Shown here: positions 1 to 40,035 of the stretch, piece after piece
How positions within the stretch are numbered: the stretch's first letter is position 1
Layout of the letters: every line of letters starts with the position of its first letter
Source of the DNA: Escherichia coli
Lineage (GTDB): Bacteria; Pseudomonadota; Gammaproteobacteria; Enterobacterales; Enterobacteriaceae
Strand: one strand, 5' to 3'
Assembly: GCF_024502345.1 (NCBI RefSeq)
Contig: NZ_JALDNN010000001.1
DNA: 64,000 nt
Position numbers and translations under genes: made by a program
The notes under the pieces: model-generated
The model's input: only the letters and a program-made list of their open reading frames with translations
What the model was told of the DNA's origin: nothing
The model's database searches: none

Positions 1-788
1 TTGCACCTGCTGCATCGCCTCTCGCTTCGACCATCGTTCAGACCCCGGACGACGCGATTGTGGCGGGCTTCACCTCTATCCCTTCACAAGGGGATAACAT
101 GCCTGCTTACCATGCCAGACCAAAGCAAAGCGATGGCCCACTGCCAGTGGTCATTGTAGTGCAGGAAATTTTTGGCGTGCATGAACATATCCGCGACATT
201 TGTCGCCGTCTGGCGCTGGAGGGGTATCTGGCTATCGCACCTGAACTTTACTTCCGCGAAGGCGATCCGAATGATTTTGCCGATATCCCCACGTTGCTTA
301 GCGGTCTGGTAGCAAAAGTGCCTGACTCGCAGGTGCTGGCCGATCTCGATCATGTCGCCAGTTGGGCTTCCCGCAACGGCGGCGATGTTCATCGTTTAAT
401 GATCACCGGATTCTGCTGGGGTGGACGTATCACCTGGCTGTATGCCGCGCATAATCCACAGCTAAAAGCCGCAGTGGCGTGGTACGGCAAACTGACGGGC
501 GACAAGTCGTTGAATTCACCGAAACAACCTGTTGATATCGCAACCGATCTTAACGCGCCGGTTCTCGGCTTATATGGCGGTCTGGATAACAGTATTCCGC
601 AGGAGAGCGTTGAAACCATGCGCCAGGCGCTGCGGGCTGCTAATGCGAAAGCAGAGATTATCGTGTACCCGGATGCCGGGCATGCATTCAACGCTGATTA
701 TCGCCCGAGCTATCATGCCGAATCTGCGAAAGATGGCTGGCAGCGTATGCTGGAATGGTTTAAGCAGTATGGTGGGAAGCGGAGTTAG
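1..788 (+). CDS. ysgA: Dienelactone hydrolase family protein, 5' end outside window
   Basis: Open frame runs from window edge (..APAASPLASTIVQTPDDAIVAGFTSIPSQGDN..) to stop at 788; alpha/beta hydrolase with GFCWGG nucleophile elbow; K-12 synteny next to metE. Confidence 0.85.
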   Translation, partial: APAASPLASTIVQTPDDAIVAGFTSIPSQGDNMPAYHARPKQSDGPLPVVIVVQEIFGVHEHIRDICRRLALEGYLAIAPELYFREGDPNDFADIPTLLSGLVAKVPDSQVLADLDHVASWASRNGGDVHRLMITGFCWGGRITWLYAAHNPQLKAAVAWYGKLTGDKSLNSPKQPVDIATDLNAPVLGLYGGLDNSIPQESVETMRQALRAANAKAEIIVYPDAGHAFNADYRPSYHAESAKDGWQRMLEWFKQYGGKRS

Positions 789-1181
789 TTTCCTCTTAGT
801 CTATATTTGAGATGGTGAGTGAACGAGTGCGTTTTGCTGCCATCTCTGTCCCCCAAAAAATAATCAGTATGAATTGATTGGAGATTACGACTCCGCTATT
901 TGACCTTAAAAAAGTCGGCAAGTCATAGTCATAAATGAGTCTCTTCAATGGAAGACACCTTAGAGATTTACCATCAACTCCCATTCACAAACAAACATTA
1001 ATTATTATCAACACATTCACATTAATTATAAATCATCTCAGACCTTCCTGATAAAAAGATATTAAAGTGAAACATTTTGTTTTTCACATTTTAGTTCATC
1101 ACTTTTAGGCGTAAATAAAGGTAAAAAAAACAACAATACTATTTCTCTTTCACAAAAGAATTAACAAAAGGTTTTTCAAGG

Positions 1182-1657
1182 ATGAGTGATATTATTTACC
1201 TGACCATAACCGGAGAACAACAAGGATGTATTTCCTCTCGTTGTGGAACGAGCGCATCAATAGGTAATCGCTGGCAGATTGGCCATGATGATGAAATCTT
1301 CGCGTTCTCGCTCTCTAATAGTATTACGAATACAGGCAAAGGGTCATAATTGCATGGCCTTAGTTTCTGTAAATTGATTGACAAAAGCTCCCCGTTACTT
1401 ATTAACGCTATTAACAATAACGAGCAGTTGTTCATGGAGTTTGACTTCTATCGGATCAATAGGTTTGGTCGATGGGAGAAATATTACAACATTCAACTCC
1501 GCGGCGCGCTCTTATCAGCAATCAATCACCTGTTTACTGAGAACAATCTGGATACAGAAGCCATCACTGTCAGTTATGAATATATACTCTCCAGGCATCT
1601 GATTGCTAATACTGAATTTAGTTATTTGGCATTTCCCGATAACTACAACCGTCTGTT
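1182..1657 (+). pseudogene. hcp: T6SS Hcp-family tube protein gene, disrupted by in-frame TAA (1347-1349) and truncated at 1657 by IS903-like insertion
   Basis: Translation MSDIIYLTITGEQQGCISSRCGTSASIGNRWQIGHDDEIF..GKGS*LHGLSFCKLIDKSSPLLINAINNNEQLFMEFDFYRINRFG.. matches Hcp family signature (KLIDKSSP, FxFYRIN); N- and C-parts are in the same frame separated by TAA. Confidence 0.7.
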
Positions 1658-2714
1658 GGCTTTGTTGAATAAATCGAACTTTTGCTGAGTTGAAGGATCA
1701 GATCACGTATCTTCCCGACAACGCAGACCGTTCCGTGGCAAAGCAAAAGTTCAAAATCACCAACTGGCCCACCTACAATAAAGCCCTCATCAACCGTGGC
1801 TCCATAACTTTCTGGCTGGATGATGAAGCTATTCAGGCCTGGTATGAGTCAGCAACACCTTCTTCACGAGGCAGACCTCAGCGCTATTCTGACCTTGCCA
1901 TCACGACTGTGCTGGTCATTAAACGCGTATTCAGGCTGACCCTGCGCGCTGCGCAGGGCTTTATTGATTCCATTTTTTCTCTGATGAACGTTCCGCTACG
2001 CTGCCCGGATTACAGCTGTGTCAGCAGGCGGGCAAAGTCGGTTAATGTCAGTTTCAAAACGCCCACCCGGGGTGAAATCGCACACCTGGTAATTGATTCC
2101 ACCGGGCTGAAGGTCTTCGGTGAAGGCGAGTGGAAAGTCAAAAAGCATGGCCAGGAACGCCGCCGTATCTGGCGTAAGCTGCATCTCGCCGTTGACAGTA
2201 AAACACATGAAATCATCTGCGCTGACCTGTCGCTGAACAACGTTACGGACTCAGAGGCCTTCCCCGGGTTAATCCGGCAAACCCACCGGAAAATCAGGTC
2301 AGCCGCCGCCGATGGCGCTTACGATACCCGGCTATGTCACGATGAACTGCGGCGTAAGAAAATCAGCGCGCTTATCCCTCCCCGAAAAGGTGCGGGTTAC
2401 TGGCCCGGTGAATATGCAGACCGTAACCGTGCAGTGGCTAATCAGCGAATGACCGGGAGTAATGCGCGGTGGAAATGGACAACAGATTACAACCGTCGCT
2501 CGATAGCGGAAACGGCGATGTACCGGGTAAAACAGCTGTTCGGGGGTTCACTGACACTGCGTGACTACGATGGTCAGGTTGCAGAGGCTATGGCCCTGGT
2601 ACGAGCGCTGAACAAAATGACGAAAGCAGGTATGCCTGAAAGCGTGCGTATTGCCTGAAAACACAACCCGCTACGGGGGAGACTTACCCGAAATCTGATT
2701 TATTCAACAAAGCC
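1658..2714 (+). mobile_element. IS903-family (IS5 family) insertion sequence, 1057 bp, 18-bp terminal inverted repeats, flanked by 9-bp direct target duplication CCGTCTGTT (1649-1657 and 2715-2723)
   Basis: Left end GGCTTTGTTGAATAAATCG at 1658, right end GATTTATTCAACAAAGCC ending 2714; identical 9-mers on both flanks read directly from sequence; single DDE transposase ORF inside. Confidence 0.9.
1735..2658 (+). CDS. IS903-family DDE transposase (307 aa if GTG start at 1735; six-frame ORF extends to 1690)
   Basis: IS5-family transposase motifs (DSTGLKVFGEGEWKVKKHG..RRIWRKLHLAVD); lies inside the inverted-repeat-bounded element. Confidence 0.8.
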   Translation: MAKQKFKITNWPTYNKALINRGSITFWLDDEAIQAWYESATPSSRGRPQRYSDLAITTVLVIKRVFRLTLRAAQGFIDSIFSLMNVPLRCPDYSCVSRRAKSVNVSFKTPTRGEIAHLVIDSTGLKVFGEGEWKVKKHGQERRRIWRKLHLAVDSKTHEIICADLSLNNVTDSEAFPGLIRQTHRKIRSAAADGAYDTRLCHDELRRKKISALIPPRKGAGYWPGEYADRNRAVANQRMTGSNARWKWTTDYNRRSIAETAMYRVKQLFGGSLTLRDYDGQVAEAMALVRALNKMTKAGMPESVRIA

Positions 2715-2852
2715 CCGTCTGTTTATACCACGGCCAAAAACTAAAGCTGGTAATGGTTCAAAACACTTAATAGTAAAGCGGTTGGCAGACTGCTTGCTGC
2801 TGGCGGCATATACAATGGGAATATCGAAGGATTCAGGGAAACAGCAGACAAG

Positions 2853-3395
2853 TTGGGGGGAGATGCACCTGCTGGTTACGATCAATTTATGGATAACAAA
2901 GGGTTACTCATCGCTGGTGCTTCAATAGTTGCTGGAGCAGTTCTGGGGAGAATGAGACTCCCTGATTTGGAATCACTTGAGCATTTCGGAGCCAGAGGAG
3001 CAGTATCAGGAAGACCATTTAATCCCGACCTTGCCGGTGGTCCAATAGAAAATCTGACGACAGATGGCGTAACAATCAACAGGGAAGGTATCGCTATTGT
3101 TGAAAAACACATAGCCAGATTTGGTCATGACCCTGTAAATGAAGTGATGATCAATAGACTGAAAGACATTGAGAAAGGAAAAATCCCCCCAGAACAAGTA
3201 GATCTTAACTTCTATACTCATGAGTGTCGGGAATATCAGCGTTACTGTAATCTTGGTTGGGAAACAGGACAACCTGATGGTGACGCAGGCTATGCACTCT
3301 GGAATCATACGCATACTGCTACTCTAGAAGATTATAAACTTAAGGGAGAACTTAATGACTTATACCACCAGGATGCACTTGACTATGATAACTGA
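2853..3395 (+). CDS. Orphan toxin-like C-terminal domain ORF (possible extension domain of the disrupted Hcp, Hcp-ET type); frame is open back to 2754 without ATG
   Basis: 180-aa ORF with TTG start and no ATG upstream in frame, directly downstream of hcp/IS; overlaps the next small ORF; no catalytic motif recognised by eye. Confidence 0.35.
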   Translation: MGGDAPAGYDQFMDNKGLLIAGASIVAGAVLGRMRLPDLESLEHFGARGAVSGRPFNPDLAGGPIENLTTDGVTINREGIAIVEKHIARFGHDPVNEVMINRLKDIEKGKIPPEQVDLNFYTHECREYQRYCNLGWETGQPDGDAGYALWNHTHTATLEDYKLKGELNDLYHQDALDYDN

Positions 3396-3630
3396 AACTG
3401 AAATTAACGTACTGAAAGTTATGGCTGAGAAAGATATAAACTGGAACTGGATGAATCTCGATCGCACACTATCCATAAGGCAAATTCCAGGATTCGGTAA
3501 TGTTGTTAACATTGTTAACAAATTAGCTAACGAGGGTTTGGTTATTATTGAGGATAGCGGACATAAGTCTATGCCTCACTACCACGTTACTGAAAAGGGA
3601 TACAATTTCGTGAAAAGTGAGAATAAATAA
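3385..3630 (+). CDS. Small ORF in immunity-protein position (81 aa from ATG 3385; alternative start 3355)
   Basis: ATG overlaps the last codons of the upstream ORF (ATGATAACTGA arrangement), typical of translationally coupled toxin-immunity pairs; function not recognisable. Confidence 0.3.
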   Translation: MITETEINVLKVMAEKDINWNWMNLDRTLSIRQIPGFGNVVNIVNKLANEGLVIIEDSGHKSMPHYHVTEKGYNFVKSENK

Positions 3631-3776
3631 CGTAGCGTTGATTACTGAACAAATCGCTCAGGATTATATTTTGCGTAAAAATGATTCGGTTATTTCTGTA
3701 TCTGAACGGGCGCAGATAGCAAAATGGCTTCCGGTGATGGAAGCCATCAGATTATTGGCAAAGTGCGCGTTGTTCA

Positions 3777-3808
3777 TGCCGGATGCGGCGTGAACGCCTT
3801 GTCCGGCC
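3777..3808. repeat. REP (repetitive extragenic palindrome) element
   Basis: GCCGGATGCGGCGTGAACGCCTTGTCCGGCC palindromic unit. Confidence 0.6.
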
Positions 3809-3914
3809 AACAAAACTCAAAAATTCAATAAATTGCATAAATTATGTAGGCCTGGTATCAGGCAGTTTTGCCTCTTTCATCGTACTGCAATTTACAGTGA
3901 CTCGTTAATATTCA

Positions 3915-6176
3915 TCATCCCCGACGCAAATTCTGCGCCGCCTGCACCATGTTCGCCAGTGCCGCGCGGGTTTCTGGCCAGCCGCGCGTTTTCAGGCCAC
4001 AGTCCGGGTTGACCCACAGGCGCTCTGCCGGAATGCGTTTTGCCGCTTTCTTCAGCAAGGCTTCAATCCATTCCACGCTCGGTACGTTTGGCGAGTGAAT
4101 GTCATAGACGCCTGGACCGATTTCATTCGGATAATCAAACTCTTCAAACGACTCCAGCAACTCCATGTCGGAACGCGAGGTTTCGATGGTGATGACGTCT
4201 GCATCCAGTGCCGCAATCGAATCCATGATGTCGTTGAACTCGCAATAACACATGTGAGTGTGGATTTGTGTGTCATCTTTCGCCACGGCGGCGTTGATAC
4301 GGAAGGCCTCCACGCCCCACTGGAGATATGCATCCCAGTCGCTACGACGCAGCGGTAAACCTTCGCGCAGCGCCGGTTCATCAATCTGGATGATGCCAAT
4401 TCCTGCGGCTTCCAGGTCCGCCACTTCATCACGCAGCGCCAGCGCAATTTGTTTGGCGATGGTTTCACGGCTGACATCTTCACGCGGGAACGACCAGCAG
4501 AGAATGGTCACCGGGCCAGTCAGCATCCCTTTCACCGGTTTATCAGTCAGAGATTGCGCATACTTCGCCCACTCCACGGTAATCGGTGCCGGGCGGCTAA
4601 TGTCACCAATGACAATCGGTGGCTTCACGCAGCGGGAACCGTAGCTCTGTACCCAACCGTTTTGCGTAAAGACAAATCCGTCGAGGTGCTCGCCAAAGTA
4701 TTCCACCATGTCATTACGCTCGGCCTCGCCATGTACCAGCACATCCAGTCCCAAACGTTCCTGTTCAACAATGGCCTGCTTGATATGTTCCGCAATGCCC
4801 GTGCGGTAGTTGTTGGCGTCGAGATTACCCTTTTTGAAATCCAGACGCAGGGTACGAATTTCCGTGGTTTGCGGGAAGGAACCAATCGTGGTGGTCGGCC
4901 ACGCTGGCAGTTTAAAACGCGCACGCTGGGCTTCGGCACGCACTTCATAGACATTCGCACGCTGGCTGTCCTGGGCGGTGATCGCCGCCAGACGCTTTTC
5001 TACTGCCGGGTTATGTACACGAGTAGAGTGACGACGCGCCTGAATTGGAGCGCTCCACTCTGCCAGAGCTGCCGTATCACCACTGTTCAGCGCATCTCGC
5101 AGCAGTGCCAGTTCATGACATTTTTGCAGGGCGAAGGCAAACCAGCTTTTCACTTCTGCATCAAGACGCGTTTCCACGCTCAGGTCGATGGGGCTGTGCA
5201 GCAACGAGCAGGAAGATGCCACCCACAAATCACGTTTGCCGACAATGTCCTTAATTTGCGCATATTTCTCAGTAAGATCGGCGCGCCAGACGTTACGACC
5301 ATTGATCAGACCCGCAGACAGCAGCCAGTCAGAAGGCAGGCGCTTGTGCAGTTCAACAACGTCATCTTTACCATGTACAAGGTCCACATGCAGCCCCTGA
5401 ACAGGCAGCGCAGTAATCGTGTCGAGATTTGGCGTTACGCCTTCAAAATAGGTGGTCAGCAGCAGTTTCACCTGTCCCTGGAGCGCGTCGTAAGCGGGTT
5501 TGTATGCGTCCAGCCACGCCTGTGGTAGTTCCAGTACCAGCGCGGGTTCATCAATCTGTACCCACTCGATGCCGCGTTTCGCCAGTTCTGCCAGCACTTG
5601 CTGATAAACCGGCAGAATGTCGTTCAGCAGGCTAAGGCGGTCAAACTGTTCACCTTTCACTTTCCCCAGCCACAGGTAAGTAACCGGCCCCAGCAGCACA
5701 GGCTTAACGTTGTGGCCCAGCGCCAGCGCCTCGTCCACTTCCTCCAGCAGCTGCGTCCAGGTCAGTTTGAACTGTTGGCCTTTAACGAACTCCGGCACCA
5801 TGTAGTGATAGTTGGTGTTAAACCATTTGGTCATTTCCGCTGCCGCCGCAGGTTCGCCAGTCGGCGCACGTCCACGACCAATACGGAACAGGGTGTCGAT
5901 ATCTACCGAACCGTCTTTGTTCTGATGACGTGGCGGAACATTACCCAGCAGCAAACTGGTGGTCAGTACATGATCGTACCAGGCAAAATCGCCCACCGGC
6001 AGCAGGTCGATACCCGCTTGCTTTTGTTGATCCCAGTGACGAGCACGCAGTTCACGCCCTACTGTCAGCAGTTCTTCACGCGTGGAGTTCCCCGCCCAAT
6101 AACTTTCTTGCGCTTTTTTCAGCTCGCGACGCAGGCCAACGCGAGGGAAACCGAGGGTGTGATTCAATATTGTCAT
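3915..6176 (-). CDS. metE: Cobalamin-independent methionine synthase
   Basis: 753-aa ORF, N-terminus [29 protein letters not shown] typical of MetE; divergent from metR as in E. coli. Confidence 0.97.
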
Positions 6177-17062: not shown

Positions 17063-17233
17063 TAGGAAAAAGTTTCCTAATCGGTAAATTCAATATTTTG
17101 TTATTAACAATGAGCAAGACCAATCATTAACGACGTTCTCTTCAGAGATGTAATGAAAAAATGTGAAGTGTACTTCTTTTTTAAATATTTTTTTACCCTA
17201 GCATTTGTTCTCAAATTGGGTAATGACTCCAAC

Positions 17234-17737
17234 TTATTGATAGTGTTTTATGTTCAGATAATGCCCGATGACTTTGTCATGCAGCTCCACCGATTTTGAG
17301 AACGACAGCGACTTCCGTCCCAGCCGTGCCAGGTGCTGCCTCAGATTCAGGTTATGCCGCTCAATTCGCTGCGTATATCGCTTGCTGATTACGTGCAGCT
17401 TTCCCTTCAGGCGGGATTCATACAGCGGCCAGCCATCCGTCATCCATATCACCACGTCAAAGGGTGACAGCAGGCTCATAAGACGCCCCAGCGTCGCCAT
17501 AGTGCGTTCACCGAATACGTGCGCAACAACCGTCTTCCGGAGCCTGTCATACGCGTAAAACAGCCAGCGCTGGCGCGATTTAGCCCCGACGTATCCCCAC
17601 TGTTCGTCCATTTCCGCGCAGACGATGACGTCACTGCCCGGCTGTATGCGCGAGGTTACCGACTGCGGCCTGAGTTTTTTAAATGGCGGAAAATCGTGTT
17701 GAGGCCAACGCCCATAATGCGGGCGGTTGCCCGGCAT
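17234..17737 (-). CDS. insB: IS1 InsB (expressed as InsAB' transposase by -1 frameshift)
   Basis: 167-aa ORF typical of IS1 InsB, overlapping insA 3' end. Confidence 0.95.
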
Positions 17738-17931
17738 CCAACGCCATTCATGGCCATATCAATGATTTTCTGGTGCGTACCGGGTTGAGAAGCGGTGTAA
17801 GTGAACTGCAGTTGCCATGTTTTACGGCAGTGAGAGCAGAGATAGCGCTGATGTCCGGCGGTGCTTTTGCCGTTACGCACCACCCCGTCAGTAGCTGAAC
17901 AGGAGGGACAGCTGATAGAAACAGAAGCCAC
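17656..17931 (-). CDS. insA: IS1 InsA
   Basis: 91-aa [46 protein letters not shown].. identical in character to IS1 InsA. Confidence 0.95.
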
Positions 17932-18029
17932 TGGAGCACCTCAAAAACACCATCATACACTAAATCAGTAAGTTGGCAGCATCACCCTCAAATTGATATT
18001 GAGCTTAAATATAACCAAGGAAAATGTAA

Positions 18030-38379: not shown

Positions 38380-40035
38380 ATGGAATTTTCGTTTTCACCC
38401 AAACTTCTTGTTGTTGCTGTCGCCGCCGCTCTTCCTCTCATGGCCAGCGCAGCAGATACCCCGTCAACTGCCACCGCACGCAAAGGCTTTGCCGGATACG
38501 ATCACCCAAACCAGTATCTGGTTAAACCGGCGACCACTATTGCCGACAACATGATGCCAGTAATGCAGCATCCGGCGCAGGATAAAGAAACCCAGCAGAA
38601 GCTGGCAGAACTTGAGAAAAAAACCGGTAAGAAACCGAATGTGGTTGTTTTCTTGCTGGACGATGTGGGCTGGATGGACGTCGGTTTTAACGGTGGCGGC
38701 GTGGCGGTAGGTAACCCTACACCAGATATCGACGCCGTTGCCAGCCAGGGGCTGATTTTAACTTCGGCGTATTCTCAACCAAGCTCTTCCCCAACCCGCG
38801 CCACTATTCTCACCGGACAATACTCCATCCACCACGGCATTCTGATGCCGCCAATGTATGGGCAACCGGGCGGGCTGCAAGGGTTAACCACGCTGCCGCA
38901 ACTGCTGCACGATCAGGGCTACGTCACCCAGGCCATCGGGAAATGGCATATGGGGGAAAACAAAGAGTCGCAGCCGCAGAACGTTGGCTTTGATGATTTC
39001 CGTGGCTTTAACTCGGTGTCTGATATGTACACCGAATGGCGCGATGTTCACGTAAACCCGGAAGTGGCCCTGAGTCCGGACCGTTCTGAATACATCAAGC
39101 AATTACCATTTAGCAAAGATGACGTTCATGCGGTGCGCGGCGGCGAACAACAGGCCATTGCCGACATTACGCCGAAATATATGGAAGATCTGGATCAACG
39201 CTGGATGGAATATGGCGTTAAGTTCCTCGACAAGATGGCGAAGAGTGATAAGCCTTTCTTCCTCTATTACGGCACTCGCGGCTGTCACTTCGATAACTAC
39301 CCGAACGCCAAATATGCGGGTAGCTCTCCGGCACGCACCTCGTATGGCGACTGCATGGTGGAAATGAACGATGTGTTCGCTAATCTGTATAAAGCACTGG
39401 AGAAAAACGGTCAGCTTGATAACACGCTGATTGTCTTTACCTCCGATAACGGACCGGAAGCCGAAGTACCGCCGCACGGACGCACACCGTTCCGTGGTGC
39501 GAAAGGATCTACCTGGGAAGGCGGCGTTCGCGTTCCGACTTTCGTGTACTGGAAAGGGATGATCCAACCGCGTAAATCTGACGGTATTGTCGATCTGGCA
39601 GATCTCTTCCCTACCGCGCTGGATCTGGCAGGGCATCCTGGCGCGAAAGTGGCGAATTTAGTGCCGAAAACCACCTTTATCGATGGTGTGGACCAGACAT
39701 CTTTCTTCCTGGGAACAAATGGTCAGTCTAACCGTAAGGCCGAGCACTACTTCCTCAACGGTAAACTCGCTGCTGTGCGTATGGATGAATTCAAGTATCA
39801 CGTCCAGATTCAGCAACCTTACGCTTATACCCAGAGCGGATATCAGGGTGGATTCACCGGCACAGTAATGCAAACAGCCGGATCGTCGGTGTTTAACCTC
39901 TACACCGATCCGCAGGAGAGCGACTCTATCGGCGTGCGCCATATTCCGATGGGTGTACCGCTACAGACCGAAATGCACGCGTATATGGAGATCCTGAAAA
40001 AATATCCACCACGCGCGCAGATTAAATCTGATTAA
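38380..40035 (+). CDS. aslA: Arylsulfatase (Ser-type sulfatase)
   Basis: 551-aa ORF with signal peptide and sulfatase signature [11 protein letters not shown] (S-x-P-x-R). Confidence 0.9.

What the first reader, a model, noticed from the sequence alone, without database searches (positions are those of the whole stretch)
1182..3630. Degraded orphan T6SS Hcp locus (possible Hcp with C-terminal toxin extension plus immunity gene) between ysgA and metE
An Hcp-family tube-protein gene is recognisable by conserved segments (MSDIIYLTI.., KLIDKSSPLL.., FxFYRIN), but carries an in-frame TAA at codon 56 and is cut near its 3' end by an IS903-family element. Downstream of the IS, an open frame without an ATG (from 2754) continues into a 180-aa ORF followed by an overlapping 81-91-aa ORF. 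This is the layout of Hcp-ET type effectors (Hcp domain fused to a toxin domain) followed by a cognate immunity gene. The Hcp frame and the downstream ORF are out of register by one nucleotide, so at least three lesions (nonsense, IS, frameshift) separate this locus from a functional effector. No other T6SS structural genes are in the window, so it would be an orphan effector island.
Basis: partly seen in the sequence, partly recalled or inferred. Interest (0 to 1): 0.65.

Follow-up and report, generated by a model that had tools for sequence, protein, structure and literature searches.

The report
Dead Hcp-toxin gene, immunity gene kept
This is a broken copy of an E. coli gene that fuses a type VI secretion tube protein to an antibacterial toxin, next to a still-intact antidote gene. 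The gene decay is ordinary, but the toxin domain is widespread and has no recognised family, and the copy here is non-functional.

Summary

**The islet.** A 2.06-kb, low-GC islet sits between ysgA and metE. E. coli K-12 has only 39 bp there. It once encoded a 382-aa protein made of an Hcp domain, a linker and a C-terminal toxin, followed by an overlapping 81-aa immunity gene.

**Three lesions disable the gene in this window:**
- CAA→TAA at 1347-1349.
- Loss of one T at 2757-2758.
- An intact IS903B at 1658-2714, flanked by a 9-bp target duplication.

With the IS removed in silico, the locus is identical to strain FDAARGOS_943, which has no IS903B at this site. The IS therefore landed in a gene that was already dead.

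**Intact orthologues.** Some strains carry an intact gene at the same site, for example O145:H28 RM13516 and PCN033, where it matches the published "hcp3". In all, 848 of 5,426 complete E. coli genomes carry the locus.

**The toxin domain is not the HNH domain of Hcp-ET1:**
- It has no Pfam, NCBIfam or PDB match.
- Its confident all-helical model resembles no solved fold.
- It sits at the C-terminus of Hcp, PAAR, Rhs, WXG100 and S-type-pyocin carriers in more than 200 species.
- A co-varying gene of 70-100 aa usually follows it.

**Mechanism and rating.** The biochemical target is unknown. The domain probably acts in the cytoplasm and is possibly the pyocin G/carocin D type. This is a new member of a known kind, of modest interest.

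The parts
780..3918 (.). Islet inserted between the 3' ends of ysgA and metE. It is 2.06 kb without the IS903B and its target duplication.
   Evidence: Homology to K-12 ends at window 779 and resumes at 3919. In K-12 the two stop codons are 39 bp apart. GC is 32-45% in the islet windows free of the IS, against 54-56% in the flanking genes.
1182..1657 (+). 5' part of the Hcp-toxin pseudogene, covering codons 1-158 and the first two bases of codon 159. It holds the whole Hcp domain.
   Evidence: TIGR03344 scores 124.8 bits (cut-off 58.9) over residues 1-147.
1347..1349 (+). Nonsense codon TAA. The ancestral codon is CAA, Gln56.
   Evidence: The intact O145:H28 and PCN033 alleles have C at 1347. 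The same stop is present in O103 ML775 and FDAARGOS_943.
1649..1657 (.). Left copy of the 9-bp target-site duplication, CCGTCTGTT.
   Evidence: It is identical to 2715-2723. Alleles without the IS have a single copy.
1658..2714 (+). IS903B (IS5 family), 1,057 bp, with 18-bp perfect terminal inverted repeats. It is inserted at the junction between the Hcp domain and the linker.
   Evidence: 100% identical to copies annotated IS903B. None of 5,426 complete E. coli genomes matched across the IS at this site: no place covered 80% or more of the query.
1735..2658 (+). IS903B transposase ORF, 307 aa with a GTG start. It appears intact.
   Evidence: NF033579 scores 357.6 bits against a cut-off of 140.
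2715..2723 (.). Right copy of the target-site duplication.
2724..3395 (+). 3' part of the Hcp-toxin pseudogene: the linker, a hydrophobic Gly/Ala-rich segment, and the toxin domain. The stop codon is TGA at 3393-3395.
   Evidence: Joined to 1182-1657 it is colinear with the intact 1,149-bp genes.
2757..2758 (+). Site of the -1 frameshift: TT here where intact alleles have TTT (GGTTTC).
2946..3392 (+). Toxin domain, residues 237-382 of the ancestral protein. It is still an open frame. RefSeq annotates a 150-aa "colicin" ORF here in related strains.
   Evidence: 473 clusters at 50% identity match at E ≤ 1e-3. The domain ends within 25 aa of the C-terminus in 221 of 228 hits. The AF2 model has pLDDT 93.3. 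There is no Pfam or PDB match.
3385..3630 (+). Predicted cognate immunity gene, 81 aa and intact. An alternative ATG at 3355 would give 91 aa. It overlaps the toxin stop by 11 nt.
   Evidence: The locus DNA is identical to FDAARGOS_943, where this ORF is WP_000627421.1, and toxin-proficient O145:H28 strains are annotated with that same accession. Homologues sit directly downstream of the toxin domain in E. coli, Citrobacter, Pantoea, a PAAR locus and an Rhs locus. A profile finds 51 of 75 downstream ORFs and 0 of 1,648 decoys.
60..788 (+). ysgA (dienelactone hydrolase family), the left flank.
3915..6176 (-). metE, the right flank.

Best explanation
The locus is the decayed remnant of a specialised type VI secretion effector with its immunity gene.

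**Ancestral gene (shown).** It encoded one 382-aa protein:
- an N-terminal Hcp tube-protein domain, about residues 1-158;
- a basic linker of about 75 residues, shared with Hcp-ET1, that ends in a hydrophobic Gly/Ala-rich helix;
- a 146-residue acidic, all-helical toxin domain.

**How intact alleles would work (inferred from what is known of Hcp-ET effectors).** The fusion would be built into or carried by the Hcp tube of a T6SS encoded elsewhere in the genome and fired into neighbouring bacteria. The toxin domain would then act in the target cytoplasm. The producer is protected by the 81-aa protein encoded by the overlapping downstream gene, which presumably binds the toxin.

**State of the gene in this window (shown).**
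- The gene is dead. It carries a Gln56 nonsense codon and a 1-nt deletion, and later received an IS903B at the Hcp-linker junction.
- The immunity gene is intact.

**Why the immunity gene may persist (inferred).** It would protect against relatives that still fire the toxin.

**The toxin's chemistry (not shown).**
- My best guess is a hydrolase acting on nucleic acid or on the transcription-translation machinery. It would use the invariant residues His288, Asp319, His325, Glu326, Glu329, Arg332 and His356.
For: **One gene, not several**
- Intact 1,149-bp genes lie at the identical site in O145:H28 RM13516, TUM14759 and PCN033.
- The window differs from the O145 allele at only 8 of 1,384 positions, including the two point lesions.
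- The Hcp domain scores well above the curated threshold.

**Order of events**
- With the IS removed, the window matches FDAARGOS_943 at 1,383 of 1,383 nt. That strain has both point lesions and no IS903B at this site.

**Polymorphic-toxin behaviour**
- The domain sits at the extreme C-terminus in 221 of 228 homologues.
- Carriers include Hcp, PAAR, RHS, WXG100, LysM and, in 18 of 60 scanned, Pyocin_S bacteriocins.
- 205 relatives were found among species-representative genomes.

**Immunity**
- 75 of 79 loci have a small ORF, mostly 70-99 aa, starting at or near the toxin stop.
- 51 of those 75 match a profile seeded from the enterobacterial ORFs. None of 1,648 decoy ORFs match.
- E. coli allele B diverges from allele A only after about residue 288. 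It has its own 85-aa immunity gene, 59-60% identical, followed by an orphan A-type immunity gene.

**Cytoplasmic action**
- The domain is fused to Pyocin_S in bacteriocins. That domain is reported to be required for inner-membrane import of pyocin G and to be confined to cytoplasm-acting bacteriocins (PMC9040868).

**Pyocin G / carocin link (circumstantial)**
- That domain type is described as having no similarity to known structures and an immunity protein of 87-90 aa (PMC10422930, PMC7322526, PMC7461348).
- Carocin S3I is reported to resemble a Yersinia pestis immunity protein, and a Y. pestis "colicin (partial)" carries this domain.
- A Pectobacterium carotovorum bacteriocin locus holds a remnant of this domain.
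Against: - **Nothing here is experimental.** No toxicity, secretion or immunity assay exists for this allele.
- **The one published mutant does not support it.** In PCN033, Δhcp3 showed no marked loss of competition against W3110, while Δhcp2 did. The authors linked hcp3 to host-cell invasion instead (PMC4882540).
- **The charge is atypical.** The toxin domain is acidic, with pI 4.85; the family median is 5.0 and 87% of members are below 7. As I recall, classical nuclease colicin domains are basic.
- **Reported activities conflict.** For the pyocin G/carocin type, DNase activity is reported for carocins D and S3. Pyocin SX2 shows no DNase activity but inhibits transcription-translation (PMC10422930).
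- **The link to those bacteriocins is untested.** I could not obtain their sequences, so equivalence with this domain rests on indirect evidence.
- **No T6SS core genes are in the window.** Whether this strain has a T6SS is unknown.
Confidence: 0.85

Rival explanations
1. The locus is a copy of the published Hcp-ET1 (YhhZ-type), an HNH DNase effector. This is what the NCBI names "HNH endonuclease" and "colicin" on some fragments imply.
For: - The Hcp domain and linker are 74% identical to Hcp-ET1 of O104:H4 C227-11 over residues 1-228.
- Some database fragments of the C-terminal part are named HNH endonuclease or colicin.
Against: - Hcp-ET1 lies at a different locus, yhhY-yrhA.
- There is no similarity beyond residue 228.
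- No HNH or Colicin-DNase Pfam match reaches significance in any of 50 family members. The best is HNH_4 at E = 0.087 in one member.
- The confident model is all-helical where the invariant His and Glu residues lie, not a beta-beta-alpha-metal finger.
Confidence: 0.03
2. The leftover toxin ORF and the immunity gene still work as a self-contained toxin-antitoxin or addiction pair. The ORF could start at the TTG at 2853 or the ATG at 2943. This, rather than protection from neighbours, would explain why both frames remain open.
For: - The whole toxin domain (2946-3392) and the immunity gene are uninterrupted.
- RefSeq annotates a 150-aa "colicin" CDS plus the immunity gene in FDAARGOS_943.
- In Pantoea the domain sits on a 348-aa non-Hcp protein beside restriction-enzyme and reverse-transcriptase genes, with no T6SS gene among the neighbours shown.
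Against: - No convincing promoter was found upstream. The consensus scan found 9 sites against 5.6 ± 2.7 expected, and none lies on the + strand between the IS and the toxin domain.
- By my reading of the sequence, the GGAG motif before the ATG at 2943 is only 1 nt from the start codon.
- PADLOC has no match.
- The frameshift may be recent, since this allele is only 8 nt from an intact one. Open frames may simply not have decayed yet.
Confidence: 0.08
3. The intact protein is mainly a host-interaction factor rather than an antibacterial effector, as proposed for Hcp3 of PCN033. The small downstream gene would then not be an immunity gene.
For: Peng et al. 2016 (PMC4882540) report the following.
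- Δhcp3 reduced invasion of PK-15 cells and replication in macrophages.
- Competition with W3110 depended mainly on hcp2.
Against: - The domain is the killing module of many S-type pyocin and colicin-like bacteriocins, and of PAAR, Rhs and WXG100 toxins. Many come from free-living bacteria, cyanobacteria included.
- It is followed by a co-varying small gene in 51 of 75 loci.
- E. coli shows allele replacement with orphan immunity genes.
- A single prey strain and assay condition cannot exclude antibacterial activity.
Confidence: 0.07
4. The downstream ORFs are independent genes that merely lie next to a truncated Hcp gene.
For: In this window they are annotatable as separate ORFs.
Against: - Intact single 382-aa ORFs span both parts at the same locus in E. 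coli, and homologous Hcp fusions of 377-383 aa occur in Citrobacter and Salmonella.
- The in-silico repair needs only the IS excision, one base and one substitution.
Confidence: 0.01

Closest known systems
Hcp-ET effectors (Ma et al. 2017), in particular Hcp-ET1/YhhZ of E. coli O104:H4 and 55989
   Same: - The architecture is the same: an Hcp domain fused to a C-terminal toxin, followed by an immunity gene, in an orphan locus away from T6SS clusters.
- The Hcp domain and linker are 74% identical over residues 1-228.
- In Citrobacter, the gene carrying this toxin sits at the yhhY-ggt locus, the region that holds Hcp-ET1 in E. coli.
   Different: - The chromosomal site differs: ysgA-metE rather than yhhY-yrhA.
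- The toxin domain is unrelated to the HNH domain of ET1.
[quoted passage not shown]
- The copy here is a pseudogene.
Hcp3 of porcine ExPEC strain PCN033 (Peng et al. 2016)
   Same: - It matches the intact orthologue of this locus. PCN033 has a 1,149-bp tssD between ysgA and metE that is 98.3% identical to the intact O145:H28 allele.
- The paper describes hcp3 as a 1,149-bp ORF far from the T6SS cluster, whose second half has no homology (PMC4882540).
   Different: - The paper treats it as an Hcp paralogue involved in host-cell invasion. It does not recognise a toxin-immunity pair.
- The PCN033 gene is intact and the window copy is not.
Cytotoxic domain of pyocin G, pyocin SX2, carocin D and carocin S3
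   Same: - That domain is a C-terminal killing domain placed after a Pyocin_S (inner-membrane translocation) domain.
- Its immunity protein is 87-90 aa, encoded by an overlapping gene.
- Its predicted fold is unlike any known bacteriocin domain (PMC10422930, PMC7322526, PMC7461348).
- Homologues of the window's domain show the same three properties.
   Different: - Equivalence was not shown, because the reference sequences could not be retrieved.
- Here the carrier is Hcp (contact-dependent T6SS delivery), not a diffusible bacteriocin.
Rhs and CdiA polymorphic toxin loci with orphan immunity genes
   Same: - The C-terminal toxin tips are variable, with a cognate immunity gene immediately downstream.
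- One toxin-immunity pair can displace another and leave an orphan immunity gene, as in E. coli allele B loci.
- The same toxin domain also occurs on Rhs and PAAR carriers.
   Different: - The carrier is the small Hcp tube protein rather than an Rhs shell or CdiA filament.
- The recombination breakpoint lies inside the toxin domain, at about residue 288.
Usp / Hcp-ET3-4 of uropathogenic E. coli
   Same: It is also an Hcp-like N-terminus fused to a bacteriocin-type killing module, followed by immunity genes (PMC6730261, PMC5536347).
   Different: - Usp carries a Pyocin_S domain plus an HNH Colicin-DNase domain, with three immunity genes.
- The protein here has neither of those Pfam domains.

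Membership tests
Hcp/TssD, the T6SS tube protein | The sequence matches the Hcp profile above the curated threshold. | tested here: met
Hcp/TssD, the T6SS tube protein | The reading frame is intact and translatable. | tested here: not met
   There is a TAA at codon 56, an IS903B after codon 158, and a -1 frameshift at 2757-2758.
Hcp/TssD, the T6SS tube protein | A T6SS core apparatus is present to use it. | not testable with these tools
   No other T6SS gene was seen in the 64-kb window. The rest of the genome is not available.
Hcp-ET specialised effectors (Ma et al. 2017) | [quoted passage not shown] | tested here: met
   This holds for the reconstructed ancestor and for intact orthologues of 382 and 377 aa. 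It does not hold for the window copy as it stands.
Hcp-ET specialised effectors (Ma et al. 2017) | [quoted passage not shown] | tested here: not met
   No Pfam family matches the extension or 50 of its relatives. There is no similarity to the Hcp-ET1 C-terminus.
Hcp-ET specialised effectors (Ma et al. 2017) | A cognate immunity gene lies directly downstream. | tested here: met
   Adjacency is conserved and the gene co-varies with the toxin. Neutralisation itself was not tested.
Hcp-ET specialised effectors (Ma et al. 2017) | The protein is delivered by a T6SS and kills bacteria. | not testable with these tools
   The only published mutant of the orthologue, PCN033 Δhcp3, showed no marked loss of competition against W3110 (PMC4882540).
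Polymorphic toxin systems | The same toxin domain sits at the extreme C-terminus of unrelated N-terminal delivery modules. | tested here: met
   221 of 228 domains end within 25 aa of the C-terminus. Carriers include Hcp, PAAR, RHS, WXG100, LysM, Pyocin_S, Cloacin and ColA_N.
Polymorphic toxin systems | Alleles are replaced, leaving orphan immunity genes or toxin remnants. | tested here: met
   E. coli allele B loci carry a second, orphan A-type immunity gene. A Pectobacterium locus has a displaced toxin-immunity remnant.
HNH / His-Me finger endonucleases (the NCBI name on some fragments) | A beta-beta-alpha-metal core with the HNH motif is present. | tested here: not met
Pyocin G / carocin D-type cytotoxic domain | The sequence is directly similar to PyoG (ETV05907.1), CaroDK (ADH95192.1) or pyocin SX2 (EHF11209.1). 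| not tested
   The sequences could not be retrieved. Motif searches of the papers and their supplements found nothing.
Pyocin G / carocin D-type cytotoxic domain | The domain follows a Pyocin_S domain, has an immunity protein of about 10 kDa, and has a fold unlike solved structures. | tested here: met
   18 of 60 carriers scanned have Pyocin_S. Downstream ORFs are 79-91 aa. There is no structural match.
IS903B (IS5 family) | The element is 1,057 bp with 18-bp terminal inverted repeats, a 9-bp target duplication and a 307-aa DDE transposase. | tested here: met
   100% identity to copies annotated IS903B.

The most novel reading that the evidence does not exclude
The C-terminal domain may be a new enzymatic toxin fold that is not a nuclease.

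- **Proposal.** It would be an acidic, all-helical His/Asp/Glu catalytic module that blocks gene expression through some other cytoplasmic target, such as a component of transcription or translation.
- **Reach.** The domain is shared by T6SS (Hcp, PAAR, Rhs), T7SS (WXG100) and diffusible bacteriocins in Proteobacteria, Cyanobacteria, Planctomycetes and Bacteroidota.
- **Immunity.** It is paired with a dedicated family of immunity proteins of about 85 aa that show weak winged-helix hints.
- **Use of this locus.** The E. coli ysgA-metE alleles A and B would be a convenient natural pair for mapping the toxin-immunity specificity surface.
Probability: 0.25. Interest if true: 0.6.

Novelty: new member of a known kind. 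Interest (0 to 1): 0.3.

Why it matters
**For this genome it matters little.** The locus is a dead effector gene. The decay is ordinary: two point lesions, then an IS903B.

**Three points reach beyond the window:**
1. **Annotation is wrong or inconsistent.** Public records call pieces of this locus "colicin", "HNH endonuclease", "tssD" or "hypothetical protein". The evidence here says it is one Hcp-toxin gene plus an immunity gene, and that the toxin is not HNH.
2. **The toxin domain is large, widespread and unnamed.** It has 473 clusters at 50% identity and relatives in more than 200 species representatives. It has no Pfam family and no structural relative. The only biochemical reports on what is probably the same domain disagree: DNase for carocins, but inhibition of protein synthesis without DNase activity for pyocin SX2. 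E. coli offers intact alleles, two natural specificity variants and many natural knock-outs for settling this.
3. **The locus illustrates how effector arsenals erode.**
   - The toxin gene has been interrupted independently by IS903B here and by IS3 in O145:H28 RM12581.
   - An IS1 orfB-toxin fusion protein from Shigella sonnei suggests a third IS hit.
   - Point lesions have also hit the gene (a second stop codon in O103 ML775, for example).
   - The immunity gene stays intact throughout.

It also suggests re-reading the published "Hcp3" virulence phenotypes of strain PCN033 as those of a toxin-immunity module.

Tried and rejected
**Identifying the toxin domain**
- Pfam, NCBIfam and PADLOC gave no family for the toxin domain or for 50 relatives.
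- PDB sequence searches with the single sequence and with a profile gave only chance-level hits.
- The full-length AF2 model of the 382-aa protein was poor (pLDDT 48.5), so nothing can be said about how the toxin packs against Hcp.

**Candidates ruled out**
- Hcp-ET1 was considered and rejected: different locus, HNH C-terminus.
- T6EC4 of Geller et al. 2024 is an Hcp with an unannotated toxin from Citrobacter koseri. It was rejected because it is reported as Tox-REase-5-like, while this domain is all-helical.
- The four RefSeq accessions (three alleles of this locus and Hcp-ET1) do not occur in that paper's supplements.

**Attempts to tie the domain to pyocin G, pyocin SX2 or carocin D**
- Motif searches of the full-text library and of two papers' supplements found nothing.
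- Cluster look-ups of 20 bacteriocin-sized homologues gave no matching accession.
- A protein search seeded from a Pseudomonas member listed only proteins of 256 aa or fewer, and none from P. aeruginosa.
- The carocin D paper and the Ma 2017 paper are not held.
- The species-representative genome scan returned no Pectobacterium or P. aeruginosa among its best 80 loci.

**Immunity protein fold**
- Only weak winged-helix hints were found, with E between 0.02 and 0.16. They are not significant.

**Promoters**
- The promoter scan was uninformative.

Full report
**What is in the sequence**

The window is E. coli chromosome.
- ysgA (60-788, + strand) and metE (3915-6176, - strand) converge on a 3.1-kb stretch.
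- In K-12 the same two stop codons are 39 bp apart. The interval from about 780 to 3918 is therefore an inserted islet.
- In the islet windows free of the IS, GC is 32-45%, against 54-56% in the flanking genes.

- An ORF starting at 1182 reads MSDIIYLTITGEQQG....
- An in-frame TAA sits at 1347-1349.
- A 1,057-bp insertion sequence occupies 1658-2714. It has 18-bp perfect terminal inverted repeats and a 9-bp direct duplication of the target, CCGTCTGTT (1649-1657 and 2715-2723).
- A frame is open from 2754 to the TGA at 3393-3395.
- A small ORF at 3355/3385-3630 overlaps that stop codon.
- The insertion sequence is IS903B. It is 100% identical over its full length to copies so annotated on many plasmids. 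Its 307-aa transposase scores 357.6 bits on the IS5-family model NF033579.

**The pieces are one gene**

Deleting the IS and one copy of the target duplication joins the Hcp frame to the downstream sequence. The downstream toxin frame is then one nucleotide out of register.

Alignment with IS-free relatives locates the fault. The window has GGTTC at 2755-2759 where intact alleles have GGTTTC. The TAA at 1347 is CAA in intact alleles.

Megablast against 5,426 complete E. coli genomes gave these results.
- 848 genomes carry the locus, always on the chromosome.
- No genome matched across the IS at this site: no place covered 80% or more of the query.
- O145:H28 RM13516, TUM14759 and PCN033 carry an uninterrupted 1,149-bp gene (382 aa) between ysgA and metE. 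A 246-bp gene follows it and overlaps it by 11 nt.
- With the IS removed, the window locus is identical at all 1,383 positions to strain FDAARGOS_943. That strain has the stop codon and the frameshift but no IS903B at this site.
- The window differs from the intact O145:H28 allele at 8 positions.

The order of events was therefore nonsense and frameshift first, with the IS903B insertion last.

Other lineages damaged the same gene in other ways.
- O145:H28 RM12581 has an IS3 inside it.
- O103 ML775 has a second stop codon.
- A Shigella sonnei protein cluster is an IS1 orfB-toxin fusion.

**The N-terminal part is Hcp**

The repaired protein scores 124.8 bits on TIGR03344 (curated cut-off 58.9) over residues 1-147. 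It matches Pfam T6SS_HCP at E = 3.8e-13.

The IS sits after codon 158. That is the junction between the Hcp domain and the extension, not inside the toxin.

**It is an Hcp-ET-type effector, but not a described one**

Ma et al. 2017 defined Hcp-ET effectors in five toxin clans. I could reach that work only through reviews (PMC6730261, PMC6099711).

I located the published Hcp-ET1 (AAF13_24945) in O104:H4 C227-11.
- It lies between yhhY and yrhA, which is the yhhZ locus.
- It ends in a canonical HNH motif.
- It is 74% identical to the ysgA-metE protein over residues 1-228, covering Hcp and a linker (KTLNSKA.GRLLAAGG.YNGNIEGFR.TA.KLGGDA, then a hydrophobic Gly/Ala-rich segment).
- It is unrelated after that point.

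No Pfam or NCBIfam model matches the extension of the window protein.

The intact orthologue matches the gene published as "hcp3" of porcine ExPEC PCN033.
- That paper describes a 1,149-bp ORF far from the T6SS cluster, whose second half has no homology.
- Its deletion affected cell invasion more than competition with W3110 (PMC4882540).

**The C-terminal 146 residues are a widespread polymorphic-toxin domain without a name**

*Distribution*
- A search of 1.84 billion representative proteins found 473 clusters at E ≤ 1e-3.
- In 221 of 228 domain hits, the domain ends within 25 residues of the protein's C-terminus.
- Carriers range from about 150 aa to more than 5,000 aa.
- Among 60 carriers scanned against Pfam, 18 have Pyocin_S, 3 PAAR, 2 Cloacin, 2 LysM and 2 WXG100. 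RHS, Hcp, ColA_N and others appear once each. NCBIfam adds YD-repeat/RHS core and PAAR matches.
- AFDB relatives include proteins annotated as S-type pyocins, "colicin", "klebicin D activity protein" and a ferredoxin-domain bacteriocin of Pectobacterium.
- A scan of one genome per species found 205 relatives. They come from Proteobacteria, many Cyanobacteria, Planctomycetes, Bacteroidota and Acidobacteria.

*Sequence and structure*
- Fourteen positions are invariant in a 50-member alignment. In full-length numbering they include R256, H288, D319, Y323, H325, E326, E329, R332, W352 and H356.
- AlphaFold2 gives a confident model (pLDDT 93.3, pTM 0.86) built of four main helices.
- The invariant His and Glu residues lie in helices. 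The "HNH endonuclease" label on some database fragments is therefore not supported.

**The small downstream gene behaves as the cognate immunity gene**

*Conserved adjacency*
- Homologues 51-88% identical directly follow the toxin in both E. coli alleles, in Citrobacter (Hcp carrier, yhhY-ggt locus) and in Pantoea (a 348-aa non-Hcp carrier).
- ORFs of 79-91 aa follow a PAAR toxin in a VgrG-DcrB-PAAR module, an Rhs toxin and a pyocin-like protein.
- A profile built from the enterobacterial ORFs detects the PAAR-linked ORF (E = 5e-10) and the Rhs-linked ORF (E = 9e-4). It does not detect the pyocin-linked one.

*Species-representative loci*
- Across 79 loci, the toxin domain ends a median of 3 residues before the stop codon.
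- 75 loci have a small ORF starting near that stop, mostly 70-99 aa.
- 51 of those 75 join the immunity profile after two iterations. None of 1,648 decoy ORFs do.

*E. coli alleles*
- Allele B (377 aa) is nearly identical to allele A up to about residue 288 and then diverges.
- It is followed by its own 85-aa gene (59-60% identical to the A type) and then by an orphan A-type gene.
- That is the classic footprint of toxin-tip and immunity replacement.

In the window, the locus DNA is identical to FDAARGOS_943, where the immunity ORF is annotated WP_000627421.1. Toxin-proficient O145:H28 strains carry the same accession.

**How it most likely works**

*Shown*
- The domain architecture.
- The three lesions and their order.
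- The polymorphic-toxin distribution.
- The coupling between toxin and immunity genes.

*Inferred from established knowledge of Hcp-ET and Hcp-cargo effectors*
- In intact strains the fusion travels with the Hcp tube of a T6SS encoded elsewhere.
- A 16.6-kDa domain is small enough for the Hcp lumen.
- The immunity protein protects the producer and its kin by binding the toxin.

*Inferred from fusion partners*
- The toxin acts in the cytoplasm.
- Pyocin_S is reported to be the inner-membrane translocation domain of cytoplasm-acting bacteriocins (PMC9040868).
- The hydrophobic segment before the toxin (Kyte-Doolittle 19-residue maximum 1.6) may help it cross the membrane.

*Unknown: the chemistry*

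The best lead is the cytotoxic domain shared by pyocin G, pyocin SX2 and carocins D and S3.
- That domain has no Pfam family.
- Its predicted fold is unlike known bacteriocin domains.
- Its immunity proteins are 87-90 aa (PMC7322526, PMC10422930, PMC7461348).

Carocins D and S3 were reported as DNases. Pyocin SX2 showed no DNase activity but inhibited in vitro transcription-translation.

I could not obtain those sequences, so the equivalence is circumstantial. I put it at about 0.65.

The domain is acidic, with pI 4.85; the family median is 5.0. As I recall, classical nuclease colicin domains are basic. This keeps a non-nuclease mechanism open.

**Rest of the window**

- Positions 3,538-57,441 are colinear at 98.5-99.3% identity with the FDAARGOS_943 core genes from metE to rho.
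- The window has three extra segments: an IS1, intact DKNYY-family genes and an intact aslA.
- Beyond 57.4 kb, the listed ORFs have the sizes and order expected for rho, trxA, rhlB, gppA and rep. That is my inference from size and order only.
- No other T6SS gene was seen. Whether this strain has a T6SS cannot be told from the window.

**Verdict**

The locus is a decayed orphan Hcp-toxin effector with a retained immunity gene.

It is a new member of a known kind. The gene decay is ordinary. The residual interest lies in the unnamed, structurally unassigned toxin-immunity family that the locus exposes, and in correcting the inconsistent public annotation.

Noticed in passing
window 17218-17987: An IS1 copy (InsA/InsB ORFs at 17234-17931) is present here. 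It is absent from the otherwise colinear closest complete genome, FDAARGOS_943. In that genome the insertion point lies just upstream of a small islet with YPO3983-family and DUF943 genes, next to a corA fragment.
   Followed up: partly
window 27429-30256: Three ORFs of 143, 325 and 440 aa lie here. They correspond to a DKNYY-family gene that is only a frameshifted remnant in FDAARGOS_943. The gene set looks intact in this strain.
   Followed up: partly
window 38380-40035: A 551-aa ORF lies where FDAARGOS_943 has only a truncated arylsulfatase pseudogene next to aslB, so it is presumably an intact aslA.
   Followed up: partly
window 3617-3793: A 58-aa ORF overlaps the end of the immunity gene. 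RefSeq annotates it as hypothetical (WP_001222305.1), and other strains have a 40-aa version instead. It has no family match. REP-like palindromes follow at about 3770-3865.
   Followed up: partly
L001 1763-2460, L003 3604-4818, protein P0113: Related strains carry IS elements at or near the locus.
- An IS3 lies inside the Hcp-toxin gene in O145:H28 RM12581.
- An IS1A lies between ysgA and the islet in FDAARGOS_943, outside the gene.
- A Shigella sonnei protein cluster is an IS1 orfB-toxin fusion.
   Followed up: partly
L012 and L013, 1108-5399: Citrobacter carries two tandem Hcp-toxin genes of 384 and 382 aa, with several small immunity-like ORFs between them, one of them Imm35. They lie next to ggt and, as L011 shows for the same gene, downstream of an acetyltransferase homologous to yhhY. 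That is the region that holds Hcp-ET1/yhhZ in E. coli, which suggests a conserved hotspot for Hcp-toxin cassettes.
   Followed up: no
L021 2502-5590: A Pectobacterium carotovorum bacteriocin locus has an HNH-type killer gene plus a Colicin_Pyocin immunity gene. A displaced remnant follows: a Pyocin_S fragment, 108 aa of this toxin domain, and an 87-aa immunity-like ORF.
   Followed up: partly
L014 and L015, 1-9047: In Pantoea the toxin domain sits on a 348-aa protein with no recognisable delivery domain. It lies beside a type I restriction HsdR gene and a reverse-transcriptase gene, with no T6SS gene among the neighbours shown. Other enterobacteria fuse the domain to DUF8093 (PF26362). How these versions are delivered is unknown.
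   Followed up: no
L044-L092 (many loci): A large share of the species-representative hits are filamentous cyanobacteria, such as Microcoleus, Nostoc, Fischerella and Tychonema. Planctomycetes also appear. The toxin-immunity family therefore reaches far beyond T6SS-bearing Proteobacteria.
   Followed up: no
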